From: Eledone cirrhosa
Lineage: Eukaryota
Assembly (NCBI GenBank): GCA_964016885.1
Contig: OZ024745.1
Coordinates: forward strand, 20,522,001-20,586,000
Direction: 5' to 3'
Length of the DNA: 64,000 nucleotides
The notes beneath the pieces were generated by a model. That model saw nothing but the letters and a program-made list of their open reading frames with translations, did not search any database and had not been told where the DNA came from. Made by a program: the position numbers and the translations under genes. Each line of letters starts with the position of its first letter. The stretch's first letter is position 1. Below, piece after piece: positions 32,801-56,347 of the stretch.

Positions 32801-33243
32801 AGTGTATTTTGCAATACACTGTATGCTTAATTAAAAGCATTTCGAAGACCTTATGCTATTGTTTTAGAGTAGTGACAGACACACTTACTTTAATTTTCAG
32901 CAAACAGGGGGAGATAAAGCTGACAAGGCCTTGTTTCGCATTTATTGATCCTTATCAAAGCACCAATTCTAATTTTCAATTTCTGCTTGACCGGCAACCG
33001 CTCTGTATAATCAGTTTCTGATTATTACTAGAATTCTATAAGAACCAAACATCCATGATTTCAGCAAACAGGAGTAGTTGGCTTTGATAAGCATCAATAA
33101 ATGCGAAACAAGGCCTTGTCAGCTTTATCTCCCCCTGTTTGCTGAAAATTAAAGTAAGTGAGTCTGTCACTACTCTAAAACAATAGCATAAGGTCTTCGA
33201 AATGCTTTTAATTAAGCATACAGTGTATTGCAAAATACACTGT
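32801..33243. mobile_element. Fold-back element with hammerhead, in (TA)n
   Basis: About 160-bp arms 32801-32961 / 33081-33241, few mismatches. Confidence 0.8.
33080..33124 (+). ncRNA. Type I hammerhead, U3-A8 core variant
   Basis: ggct-TTGATAA-gcat(caataa)atgc-GAAA-caaggccttg-TC-agct; GUC triplet, palindromic stem III; flanks 33059-33072 / 33134-33147 also pair. Confidence 0.78.
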
Positions 33244-35759
33244 ATATACATATATATATATACTCAGCCACAAAAGAAGGAACATTGATCTCCAAAACAT
33301 TTGGCTCGGGTGTCTACCCCTGGGTCTCATGCCGATTTAATTTTTGCTAGTAAAAATCTATCCAACCTTATTCAACAAGATATCTTTTAAGCCATAGCTA
33401 AGCCTTTTTTTGTATTTCAGAATCAACACTTCTTTATCTGCTCAAACTTCAAAGTTATAACCCCAAGTCGAAGAAGTTCATCTAAATAGTGAATATGCAA
33501 CATTAATGTTGCCATCTTCTAACTTCTCTGACATAGATAATTTTCAAGTTAATAGACAGAAATAACAAATATCAAATTTCTAAATCAAATAATAATGAAG
33601 TTGTCATTAAAACACGTCCAGAGTTCACTAATTTAGCATTGTGTTTGACCTCAACGCCTCTAGTGCCAACAGTTTAAAGAAAGAGCACAATCGAACGTGC
33701 AGCTAAAAATAAAACTATTTCTCTTTCTGTTAGTCGTATGAGTTGTGCTGTGTGCATGTGTGTGTGCGTGTGTGTGTATGTTTGTGTGTGTGTGTGTATA
33801 ATTGTGCATGCGAGTGAGTTTGTGTGTATATGTGTGTGTGTGTTACTCTTTGTGTATGCTTGTGCGTTTGTGTGTGTATGTGTGTGTGTATTTATGTGTA
33901 TGTATGCATGTATGTGTGTGTGTGTGTGATGTGCTATGTGTATGTGTGTGTTTGTGTGTATATGTATATATATATATATATATATATATATATATATATA
34001 TATATATATATATATATATATATGTGTGTGTGTGTGTGAGTGTGTGTGTGAGTGTGTGTGTGTATGTGTGTATGTGTGTATGTGTATATCCGTGTGTGTT
34101 TTAGATAGGTTGGGATAAGTAATTATGTGGAAGTGAGTTATAATAGAGAACTAAAGTTATTTATAAGTCGTAATAAAGAAGAGAGGGAGAGTCTCTGTGG
34201 GTGTGTGTGACGAGGGGGCAAATATGGGGTAGTAATAGGGAGATTTTATAAACAACAACAAATAAAACAAACTGTCGGTGTTTAGATTGGGTGAGGTGGT
34301 GGTAGTGGTAGAGGGGAGAATGGCTACATATAACGTGGTTTGTCTGTGGTTAGATTTAGATCTGTCAGCATCATTGAAACATTGCAGTATATTTAATTGT
34401 TAGATGGGTAATAGGCGAAAGTTCGTTCCTTCTGTACGGGGTTGGCAAGTTTATTGGCATCAAACGTCTGCCGTATGTTAATGGAGGCTGAAGATGGAGC
34501 AAATGGCAGGCAAAGGGTGTGTGTGTGTGTGTGTGTGTGTGTGTGTGTGTGTGTGTGTGTGTGTGTGTGTGTGTGTGTGTGTGTGCGTGCGTGCGTGTGT
34601 GTGTGTGTGTGTGTGTGTGTGTGTGTGTGTGTGTGTGTGTGTGTGTGTGTGTGTGTGTGTGTGTCGAAGGAGTGCTGTGCTTCTGATTCGGAAGGCAGGG
34701 TTATTTGGTTTGGTATTTAGCTTCATCTTATTGTGATAGACTTTCAACCAAGTGTCAAGGCTACAACAGCATACAAGCATGCACACACACACACACACAC
34801 ACACACACACACACACACACACGCGCACCAACTCTCTCTCTTTCTCTCTCTCTCTCTCTCTCTCTCTCTCTCACACACACACATATATAAACACACACAC
34901 ATACACCTATATATATATATATATGTACATACATACACACATACACACATACACACGCACACACATATATATATATATATATATAGAGAGAGAGAGATAT
35001 AGATATATCAGCATACATTGCCACGCTGTGTCTCGCGACATTGCAAGACAATAACTATTCTTAATAATATCATGACTGGCTTCATCATCATCATCATCAT
35101 CATCATCATCATCATCATCATCATCATCATCATCATCATCATCATCATCATCGTCATCATCATCATTATCATCGTCATCATCATCATCATTATCAACATC
35201 ATTATCGTCATCATCCTCATCATCATCATCATCCTCCTCATCAACATCATCATCATCATCGTCATCATCGTCATCATCATCAACATCATCATCACCATCT
35301 TTAAGAACAGAACCTGTGCCTCGAGGTGCGTCGAGGGAGCTTCCTCGGTACGGAACCTATGGTAGATGATGACCAAAGGGGATCTTTTATATATGTAGAT
35401 TATTGACGGGATGAAAATATGTTGAATTGAGTTCACACCTCTGATGAGTAGAACAATCACATCGATAGAGACCCCAAGCCACATTTCTTCTTCTTCTTCT
35501 TCTTCTTCTTCTTCTTCTTCTTCTTCTTCTTCTTCTTCTTAGGAGGAGGAGGATGAGGAGGAGGAGAGGGAACCCCATTTCAATTACTTGTATTGGCGAT
35601 CGTATTCATTACTCAAGATTTATGCCCCTAGGTAAGGGTTGACAGGAATACCAATTTGAAGACAACTAGTTTGGCTTTTCTCATCACTTCTGATGACCGA
35701 CGGTTGAAGCCGGCGCATTACTGCACTAGCCACTGCAATTATTGAATTTAACTCAGCCT

Positions 35760-36125
35760 CTTACCTTCCATCACTCGTGAAAACAGCCCTGAAATACTTG
35801 AACTTCTGCAAATACTTCAGTGGAACTCTATTCACATATAGAGTGCACTGCTCAGGCTTCCTTGAGAGAACGTGTGTCTCAGACTCTTCGCAGGACTAAT
35901 TTTCATTCTTGTTGAGGAGCACTCGGAAGCAACTCTATCAAGTGCATGTAGTACCATGACGTCCGAAAATTCCAGCAGACTGATCCAACCTTCGCCAGTG
36001 ATACTACTTCTAACTCAGCTGCGCATGTCAATCCTGTCCATGAAGATTATGAACAGGAGAGGTGACAGTACGAATCCTTGGTGGAGTCAAGACGCCCATA
36101 TCAAATGGTTTCGACTTAGCACCAT
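35760..36125 (-). mobile_element. RTE-like LINE RT fragment
   Basis: Minus strand reads ..VLSPLLFIIFMDRIDMRS.. with RT-like downstream segments; broken frame. Confidence 0.6.
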
Positions 36126-55134: not shown

Positions 55135-56253
55135 ACTAGGGCTATAACACCCCACTTGCCGATTTTGCAATGGGTAACCCCTGCTTGCCAAGGGAGACGT
55201 AAGATCTTCTTTGTATTCCTTTATCGCTTCCTTTATTTCCTTCCTTCCCCCTCTCTCCTTAGTCCTTCTACCCCAGCTCTTCTCCTTTGTCGGCGTCTTT
55301 TCTCGCCCACCCGAGGCTGCCCTTTGGCCCCTTGTAGCCTTAGTACCCCCACCCCCTCCCCTAGTCTAGGATAGATTTGGCGGACTCCGCCCTTTATAGC
55401 AGTTGGTTTAGACCCCGGATACTTGTCCCCTTTTTCCGACCGCTCCCACTACTCTCTGTGCCCTCTATATTTCTTAGTGGCACTTATGCCTTATTTTTTC
55501 GTTTCAGTATTTCTTTCTTCGCTTTTCTTTTGGGCGGGGTGGATTCTGAATTTATTCTTCCGTATTCTACTTTTACTTCGTACGAACTTTCATGTAGCTT
55601 GTTTTAGATCTTTTAGAGTTAGCATTAGTATATATTTTTCTCGGGACTCAGAATTATTATCTCGTATTAGTTCACTTTGCTGCACTGGGTGGTTGCCGGA
55701 ATTGTGCCCGGGATGGAAACCTTTATTGTTTATTTCGTGGTAGTCTCTTTAGTATTTTGGCCCCTTTTGTTGACCCGTCACCGTATCATTTACGTACTTA
55801 TACCTCTTAAAAGGGTCCTCGCCTATTCCGTCCCACCTAGTTCTTTTACTTATTTCGTTATTTCTTTATTTCTTTCTTTACTTCTTTCTTTCTTTATTTA
55901 TTTTTTCTAGACTAACAATAGCTAGAGACCTAGGTCGTAGAATTTAATTTACTTTACTTTTTTCTTTACACTCATTTGTTTTTCTTTACACTTATTTGCT
56001 TTTCTTCACTCTCAGTATTATTTCTACCCCCCATTGTTCTACCTACCGTTCCAACTTCCTCCCCCTCCCCCTCCCCTGTATCTTCTTTGACCTCATGCCC
56101 AGCTGTAGCTGGCACTACAAACGCTTGATTGGGGCTACTCCACCCCCTCCCCTCTTTCTCCTACTGGCAGGTTTAGCCACCATCTCCCCTACTAATTTGC
56201 AACCACAGAATTACTACTGATTTTTGACAATCACTTTGACCATATATGGAATT

Positions 56254-56347
56254 ACCCCTTGAGAAGATCGGCTATTTAAATACCAGGATAAATTTTCATT
56301 TAGTCCAGAATTAGCCGTCGAAACGGCTTGAGCTCAGCTGTCGGGGT
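56254..56347 (+). ncRNA. Hammerhead copy in the 3' pLTR
   Basis: Same sequence as 52696-52789, offset 3558 nt. Confidence 0.82.

What the first reader, a model, noticed from the sequence alone, without database searches (positions are those of the whole stretch)
33080..56347. Four PLE families use a non-canonical U3-A8 hammerhead core
Seen: cores TTGAGAA (52701-52707 and its two copies), TTGATAA (33084-33090; 36736-36742 minus) and TTGAAAA (52015-52021 minus) replace CUGANGA, each with stems I-III, GAAA and a GUC or GUA triplet in place. Established: positions 3 and 8 form a Watson-Crick tertiary pair in the active hammerhead, so C3U plus G8A is compensatory and known as a rare natural variant. 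Inference: its recurrence in four different sequence contexts, including the youngest intact element, indicates selection for activity. CUGANGA-only searches would miss these.
Basis: partly seen in the sequence, partly recalled or inferred. Interest (0 to 1): 0.72.

Follow-up and report, generated by a model that had tools for sequence, protein, structure and literature searches.

The report
Swapped-core hammerheads in Penelope retroelements
Four families of jumping elements in this animal genome carry a predicted self-cutting RNA in which one core base pair is U-A instead of C-G; that swap is already published, but here it has flipped back and forth several times, and a very abundant sister family carries a different core change that we found in no paper.

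Summary
Observation confirmed: all six U3-A8 motifs lie at the stated coordinates with stems I-III, GAAA and GUC/GUA (0.3 hits per shuffled window). They belong to two autonomous Hydra-clade Penelope-like elements (52701, 52021) and two non-coding tandem elements of 319 and 591 nt (33084, 36742), each with hundreds to thousands of genomic copies. U3-A8 is published for Penelope-like hammerheads (about 1,300 in Schistosoma, PMC4209133) and as a natural variant (PMC3088659); the scan noted it before, in this genome and others. Added here: U3-A8 is 27 of 169 hits in 1.14 Mb; the protein tree rejects one U3-A8 clade (AU p 0.005); and sister lineages 76-87% identical switch U-A/C-G with all four stem II pairs compensated. 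Selection on the pair is well supported; cleavage is untested, and no RNA data were available. The largest family in the sample (19,063 exact matches; one copy at 27361) has an A at core position 4 as its only hammerhead, so success of an element does not by itself prove ribozyme activity. Verdict: new members of a known kind; the A4 core is the better lead.

The parts
52696..52789 (+). Family A hammerhead, core UUGAGAA 52701-52707, triplet GUC with C17 at 52784; bulged stem II; 6-bp stem III with palindromic loop
   Evidence: lowest-energy fold equals the hammerhead fold, -22.7 kcal/mol
56254..56347 (+). Second direct copy of the family A hammerhead in the 3' pseudo-LTR, core 56259-56265
52512..52625 (-). 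Inverted 5' arm of element A with third hammerhead copy (core 52606-52612)
   Evidence: 117-nt exact inverted match
52622..52884 (+). 5' pseudo-LTR of element A
   Evidence: direct repeat of 56180-56442 with 2 differences
52978..55134 (+). Intact 718-aa reverse transcriptase + C-terminal GIY-YIG endonuclease ORF, Hydra-clade motifs
56180..56442 (+). 3' pseudo-LTR of element A, followed by (TA)n; unit length 3,558 nt
33080..33124 (+). Family B hammerhead, core UUGAUAA 33084-33090, fully self-complementary stem III, C17 at 33120
   Evidence: weak Rfam HH9 match, 19.8 bits, below gathering 52
32750..33262 (.). Family B insertion: two back-to-back arms of a 319-nt non-coding unit next to (TA)n; minus-arm core 32952-32958
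36658..36747 (-). Family C hammerhead, core UUGAUAA 36742-36736, bulged stem II, self-complementary stem III, C17 at 36663
36125..36855 (-). Family C insertion (591-nt non-coding tandem unit elsewhere) between (TA)n tracts
51924..52025 (-). Family D hammerhead, core UUGAAAA 52021-52015, U.U at 10.1-11.1, triplet GUA with A17 at 51928
51720..52357 (-). 3' part of a truncated family D element, split by insertion of element A
56459..57102 (-). Endonuclease fragment and inverted arm of the same family D element on the other side of element A
   Evidence: 89-97% to family D loci
27356..27406 (+).
   Evidence: 19,063 exact genomic matches
22060..22130 (+). Canonical C3-G8 hammerhead of another Hydra-type family (mirror copy at 17321-), used as comparison

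Best explanation
The six motifs are type I hammerhead folds in the terminal repeats of two Hydra-clade Penelope-like retrotransposons and two short non-coding elements that likely borrow their enzymes, and the U3-A8 pair likely replaces C3-G8 without loss of self-cleavage. Shown: the motifs, their family-wide fixation, their link to RT-endonuclease genes (A, D) or to 319/591-nt tandem units (B, C), and repeated two-sided change of the 3-8 pair. Inferred: a tandem transcript is cut after position 17 of each motif (52784 and 56342 in element A), releasing a 3,558-nt unit with the whole ORF, or 319/591-nt units, as linear or circular templates. A is predicted to fold as a monomer; B, C and D have loopless self-complementary stem III and would need dimers or protein help. 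The likely path is C3-G8 to U3.G8 wobble to U3-A8 by two transitions, and back. That position 8 acts through its 2'-OH, so the base can change if the pair is kept, is recalled knowledge, not from a call.
For: Descriptor with free 3/8 returns almost only Watson-Crick pairs: 71 of 74 hits in 740 kb; with position 4 also free, 116 of the 121 U4 hits in 1.14 Mb (controls 12 reversed, 8.0 shuffled of 169). Fixation: 100 of 100 listed A copies have A8, 99 of 100 B copies A8, 99 of 100 C copies U3-A8. Protein tree of 8 hammerhead-linked families needs at least 2 changes, 0% of 200 bootstrap trees allow 1, AU p 0.0047 against one U3-A8 clade. B (U3-A8) and K (C3-G8) contexts are 76-87% identical; on 9 B/K sequences 8 of 15 pairs change on both sides, including 3-8 and all 4 stem II pairs, 93.9% cells paired, slid controls 18-44%. 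Sporadic U3.G8 copies exist. U3-A8 ribozymes are stated to be active in vitro (PMC3088659 passage); a Penelope-like hammerhead depends on the 3-8 pair and on its protein (PMC11167929 passages).
Against: No cleavage or RNA evidence. Family H, the largest cluster (23 of 169 hits; 32 of 32 copies A4), has no canonical or U3-A8 hammerhead in its unit, so amplification does not require a textbook core. Hammerhead mutants did not affect insertion in vitro and no reads ended at the cut site in PMC11167929; minimal Penelope-like hammerheads cleaved poorly in vitro (PMC4209133). B and D do not fold as hammerheads as monomers (constrained -3.7 vs -13.7 and -15.0 vs -20.5 kcal/mol). Four of the eight RT-hammerhead links (G, I, L140, L096) rest on one locus each, terminal repeats may be swapped between lineages, and the B/K switch is one event counted in two related rows; I picked those 9 sequences by pattern.
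Confidence: 0.78

Rival explanations
1. The hammerhead fold is kept as a structural signal (protein binding, RNA folding near the copying start) and cutting is weak or dispensable; the 3-8 pair is maintained for shape rather than catalysis.
For: A4 core in the largest family and in a second unrelated-looking family; an A9-to-G change in 4 tandem copies at one locus; cleavage dispensable for insertion in vitro (PMC11167929); low in vitro activity (PMC4209133).
Against: The 3-8 pair forms only in the tertiary-stabilised active conformation (PMC3884650 passage), and it covaries here; G5, A6, GAAA and UH are invariant across the 9 B/K sequences, although the pattern used to pick them required most of these.
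Confidence: 0.15
2. U3-A8 arose once and spread by descent or by exchange of terminal repeats between RT lineages, so recurrence in four contexts is inheritance and says little about selection.
For: U3-A8 families sit near the base of both subclades in this genome, so it may be ancestral here with reversions; hammerhead contexts of autonomous families are unalignable, so exchange cannot be excluded.
Against: Even then at least two two-sided reversions are needed, and the B/K switch lies inside alignable sequence with compensated stems.
Confidence: 0.05
3. The motifs are decayed C3-G8 hammerheads in an AT-rich genome (two C-to-T type changes per copy) or chance matches.
For: Both changes are transitions toward A/T; single-site decay is seen in individual copies (1 of 3 K copies C3-A8).
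Against: U3-A8 is fixed across thousands of copies, single-change intermediates are about 1 in 100, and shuffles give 0.03 U3-A8 hits per window.
Confidence: 0.02

Closest known systems
U3-A8 minimal hammerheads of Cercyon Penelope-like elements, Schistosoma mansoni (Cervera & De la Pena 2014, PMC4209133; parts 1-2 of 4 of the text read)
   Same: Same covariation (U3-A8 for C3-G8), same place (pseudo-LTRs), type I topology, short stem I, high diversity; about 1,300 hits reported.
   Different: There a minimal motif without stem III; here stem III is present (palindromic in B, C, D; 6 bp in A), the carriers are Hydra-type, and the switch is mapped on a tree.
Hydra clade of C-terminal EN+ Penelope-like elements (Craig et al. 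2021, PMC8557442; passages and supplement parts 1-2 read)
   Same: RW(K/R), DKT, CxCx5C linker, CxxC and CxH around the endonuclease end, (TA)n insertion, inverted 5' arm, hammerheads with U.U at 10.1-11.1 or a bulged stem II.
   Different: All 26 Hydra rows of their File S2 have C3-G8 and U4; units here are 3.2-3.6 kb against mostly under 3 kb.
Metazoan non-LTR retrozymes (PMC7229834, passages; bioRxiv 10.64898/2026.07.22.740005, part 1 of 5)
   Same: Short non-coding tandem units with one type I hammerhead each, proposed Penelope-like derivatives.
   Different: Family C unit (591 nt) is longer than the 150-450 bp quoted; U3-A8 core; expression and circles not shown here.
Natural hammerhead core variants (Perreault et al. 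2011, PMC3088659; passages)
   Same: U3-A8 seen in several natural examples and stated active in vitro; U4C tolerated in a viroid.
   Different: The passages I saw do not mention A at position 4; Figure 5 and supplements were not seen.

Membership tests
Type I hammerhead ribozyme | Three stems around core N3-U-G-A-N-N8-A and GAAA, with NUH triplet | tested here: met
   for all six motifs; D has U.U at 10.1-11.1
Type I hammerhead ribozyme | Watson-Crick pair between positions 3 and 8 | tested here: met
   U-A in all; two-sided covariation
Type I hammerhead ribozyme | Covarying stems | tested here: met
   for the B/K lineage only; not testable for A, C, D, whose sampled copies are near-identical
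Type I hammerhead ribozyme | Rfam gathering score | tested here: not met
   A: no match at E<=10; B: HH9 19.8 bits vs 52; C and D were not scanned singly. Reflects model coverage of such variants.
Type I hammerhead ribozyme | Site-specific self-cleavage | not testable with these tools
   no RNA run listed
Hydra-clade Penelope-like element | Single ORF, RT then C-terminal GIY-YIG endonuclease | tested here: met
   A; D. Pfam gave no hit for P0001; domains read from motifs.
Hydra-clade Penelope-like element | RWK motif, DKT, CxCx5C linker, CxxC/CxH, no CCHH | tested here: met
   A: RWR, DKT, CNCPDRSIC, CNLC, CKH, one Cys between the GIY and YIG halves (vs description). D: DKT, CxxC, CxH seen; RWK and linker not recovered in the projected sequence.
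Hydra-clade Penelope-like element | Groups with published Hydra proteins in a tree | not tested
Hydra-clade Penelope-like element | Pseudo-LTRs, inverted 5' arm, (TA)n insertion | tested here: met
Non-LTR retrozyme (families B, C) | Short non-coding tandem units with one type I hammerhead each | tested here: met
   units 319 and 591 nt, tandem arrays, no tblastn hit to the RT
Non-LTR retrozyme (families B, C) | Expressed as linear and circular RNA | not testable with these tools
   no RNA data; the run search used family A only
Non-LTR retrozyme (families B, C) | Derived from the terminal repeat of an autonomous element | tested here: inconclusive
   no blastn similarity to the 3' regions of six autonomous families; link rests on shared insertion pattern

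The most novel reading that the evidence does not exclude
In this Hydra radiation the hammerhead core evolves as a plastic, protein-assisted catalyst: the 3-8 pair flips repeatedly between C-G and U-A, and two dissimilar families, one of them the most abundant in the sample, use an active C3-A4-G5-A6-A7-G8-A9 core, a natural position-4 variant not found in my searches. Standard descriptors would then miss about a third of this genome's hammerheads (52 of 141 hits of the three main core types).
Probability: 0.3. Interest if true: 0.6.

Novelty: new member of a known kind. Interest (0 to 1): 0.32.

Why it matters
The U3-A8 core itself is known. What is useful is a natural covariation series in one genome: closely related B (U-A) and K (C-G) units give a ready-made pair for testing whether the swap is neutral, and repeated two-sided switches are indirect evidence that Penelope-like elements are selected to keep the catalytically active fold, which bears on the open question of what these hammerheads do. 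The A4 families sharpen that question: either a supposedly essential core base is dispensable in vivo, or a highly successful element does not need to cut its RNA. For annotation, CUGANGA descriptors and Rfam undercount these motifs.

Tried and rejected
Whole-window Rfam scan: the 150 listed of 336 matches were microsatellite noise, no hammerhead among them. DNA similarity search of the genome returned nothing because common words are skipped. Pfam: 0 families for 4 of 4 proteins. Sequencing runs: no RNA holder listed; laying contigs of three runs gave no listed difference inside the core but 47 rows were hidden and contigs show no RNA ends, so it was not used. The family E pattern was one T short, so its 140 matches count a minority form and were not used. 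C3-A8 at L047/L181 was rejected as a family trait: 2 of 3 copies are C3-G8. Eight GAGAAUA hits enclose a canonical hammerhead of one family and were treated as chance; one AT-rich U3-A8 single hit (L154) was treated as probable chance. The 44-row tree finished only as a quick tree; the test used 16 rows, leaving out 11 genomic rows with no linked hammerhead and 17 of 25 homologs. Lunse et al. 2017 (PMC5785218) and Przybilski & Hammann 2007 (PMC1986816) were not held, so nothing is taken from them; they may report these variants. Figures and supplements of PMC4209133 and PMC3088659, which show core changes, were not seen; supplements of the bioRxiv paper are closed. Searches for the A4 variant: 'hammerhead'+'U4A' 0 papers, 'hammerhead'+'CAGANGA' 0, a position-4 phrase search 2 unrelated, 'U4C' 1; scan notes 0.

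Full report
Observation. A type I hammerhead descriptor that leaves positions 3, 7 and 8 free finds 9 motifs in the window: 6 U3-A8 at exactly the sites named (33084+, 36742-, 52021-, 52612-, 52701+, 56259+) and 3 canonical C3-G8. Thirty locally shuffled windows give 0.3 hits on average. The triplets and the predicted cut after 52784 are as stated. Rfam does not recognise the 52701 motif at E up to 10 and scores 33084 at 19.8 bits against HH9, below its threshold of 52.

What carries them. The window lies in a 3.0-Gb genome; I did not establish the taxon. Family A (52701 and copies) is an intact element: 263-nt direct repeats at 52622-52884 and 56180-56442 with 2 differences, a 117-nt inverted arm, (TA)n on both sides, unit 3,558 nt, and a 718-aa ORF with RWR, DKT, YRDD, CxCx5C, GIY-YIG, CxxC and CxH motifs, matching the description of the Hydra clade (PMC8557442 passages). 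A motif pattern has 2,143 exact genomic matches, 100 of 100 listed with A8. Family D (52021) is a second autonomous Hydra-type family, 43% identical to A in protein, 1,564 matches; the window copy is truncated and split by the insertion of A, its endonuclease fragment lying at 56459-56990. Families B (417 matches, 99 of 100 listed A8) and C (7,047 matches for the 3' half; 5,617 for the 5' half, 99 of 100 listed U3-A8) are non-coding units of 319 and 591 nt that occur in tandem and back-to-back arrays and have no similarity to the RT. They fit the description of non-LTR retrozymes (PMC7229834 passages; bioRxiv 10.64898/2026.07.22.740005 part 1); no parent element was found among six autonomous 3' regions.

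How common. In 74 evenly spaced 10-kb stretches, 74 hits were 55 C3-G8, 16 U3-A8 and 3 others (reversed control 5, shuffles 1.6). In 114 stretches (1.14 Mb, weighted to large contigs) with position 4 also free, 169 hits were 89 C3-U4-G8, 27 U3-U4-A8, 25 C3-A4-G8 and 28 others (reversed 12, shuffles 8.0), in 44 clusters; seven credible clusters have U3-A8, and B is an eighth family. Among the 121 hits with U4, 116 have a Watson-Crick 3-8 pair.

Selection on the pair. Eight families could be linked to a protein (four links rest on one locus each). U3-A8 families A and G group with the C3-G8 family H, while I and D group with three C3-G8 families; the tree needs at least 2 changes, none of 200 bootstrap trees allows 1, and one U3-A8 clade is rejected (AU p 0.0047, 16 rows). 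Direction is unresolved: all 26 Hydra rows in the published table are C3-G8, but U3-A8 could be ancestral within this genome. Exchange of terminal repeats between lineages could mimic switches. A cleaner case is B (U3-A8) and K (C3-G8), 76-87% identical in context: on 9 hand-picked B/K sequences 8 of 15 pairs change on both sides, including 3-8 and all four stem II pairs, with 93.9% of cells paired against 18-44% for slid controls. The two C-G rows are related and count as one event.

Mechanism. Shown: anatomy, fixation, covariation. Predicted: A folds alone as a hammerhead (lowest-energy fold equals the constrained fold) and can also dimerise through its palindromic stem III (-26.3 kcal/mol); C is within 1.1 kcal/mol; B and D prefer other folds as monomers and have self-complementary stem III strands, pointing to dimers or protein help. 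Inferred: cuts in a tandem transcript release unit-length RNAs, as proposed in PMC4209133. A related element's hammerhead needs the 3-8 pair and its own protein, but cleavage was dispensable for insertion in vitro (PMC11167929 passages). No RNA run was listed for this genome's element, so expression and cleavage are untested.

Comparison with what is known. Natural U3-A8 covariation was described in 2011 and stated to be active in vitro (PMC3088659 passages). In 2014 it was reported in Penelope-like (Cercyon) elements of Schistosoma, with about 1,300 hits (PMC4209133); that was the only paper returned for 'hammerhead'+'U3-A8'. The scan's own notes hold 23 findings on this theme in at least 8 genomes, including this one; I had reached my reading before opening them and use them only as context. 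So the finding is a new example of a known variant, new only in being Hydra-type, multi-family and mapped on a tree.

An unexpected result that cuts both ways. Family H, 54% identical to A in protein, carries at the equivalent position a full hammerhead shape with core CAGAAGA, that is A at position 4. It has 19,063 exact matches, 100 of 100 listed with A4; 32 of 32 copies in the unbiased sample have A4, and three full or near-full units contain no canonical or U3-A8 motif. One copy lies in the window at 27361. A second family, J, with different stems has the same core (241 matches, 99 of 100 listed A4) and folds as a hammerhead with an 8-bp stem I; H alone does not fold so at minimum energy. 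My searches found no report of A4, but two key papers and several figures could not be read. This weakens the argument from element success to ribozyme activity and is the more novel lead.

Verdict. Real, selected, ordinary in kind: interest 0.32. The novel reading, an active A4 core within a plastic protein-assisted hammerhead, has probability about 0.3.

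Noticed in passing
window 27356-27406 (+); L279:621-671, L129:1444 (-): Family H hammerhead-shaped motif with A4 core (CAGAAGA); 19,063 exact matches; the only such motif in its 3.26-kb autonomous unit.
   Followed up: partly
L158:1887 (-), L164:4374 (+), L214-L238: Family J: second A4-core motif with 8-bp stem I and long AT-rich stem III of variable length; some copies in ~500-nt tandems; 241 matches.
   Followed up: partly
L022:2228-2859: B-related 316-nt tandem with U3-A8 and G at position 9 in all 4 detected copies, stems compensated.
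   Followed up: partly
L158:4759 (+) and one other locus: Two-locus cluster with C at position 4 (CCGAAGA); may be a family-level U4C variant.
   Followed up: no
window 51720-57102: Element A is nested in the (TA)n of a truncated family D copy, so A inserted later than D here.
   Followed up: yes
window 17321-22068: 5'-truncated Hydra-type element with canonical C3-G8 hammerheads and inverted arms 100% identical over 1,993 nt; ORF 19344-21056.
   Followed up: partly
window 11755 (-) and 31755 (-): Two further canonical C3-G8 hammerhead families; 11755 was found only by the relaxed scan.
   Followed up: no
L113:3186, L112:3181, L139:6877, L243:7083: Four more U3-A8 families (E, F, G, I) outside the window; G and I are linked to Hydra-type ORFs.
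   Followed up: partly
L274:9451 (-) and related loci: A second hammerhead-like descriptor match (G3.U8, A4) encloses the canonical motif of one family in 8 copies; treated as chance.
   Followed up: no
window 59755-63020 and 1-1321: Long degenerate short-period tandem arrays that produce spurious open frames.
   Followed up: no
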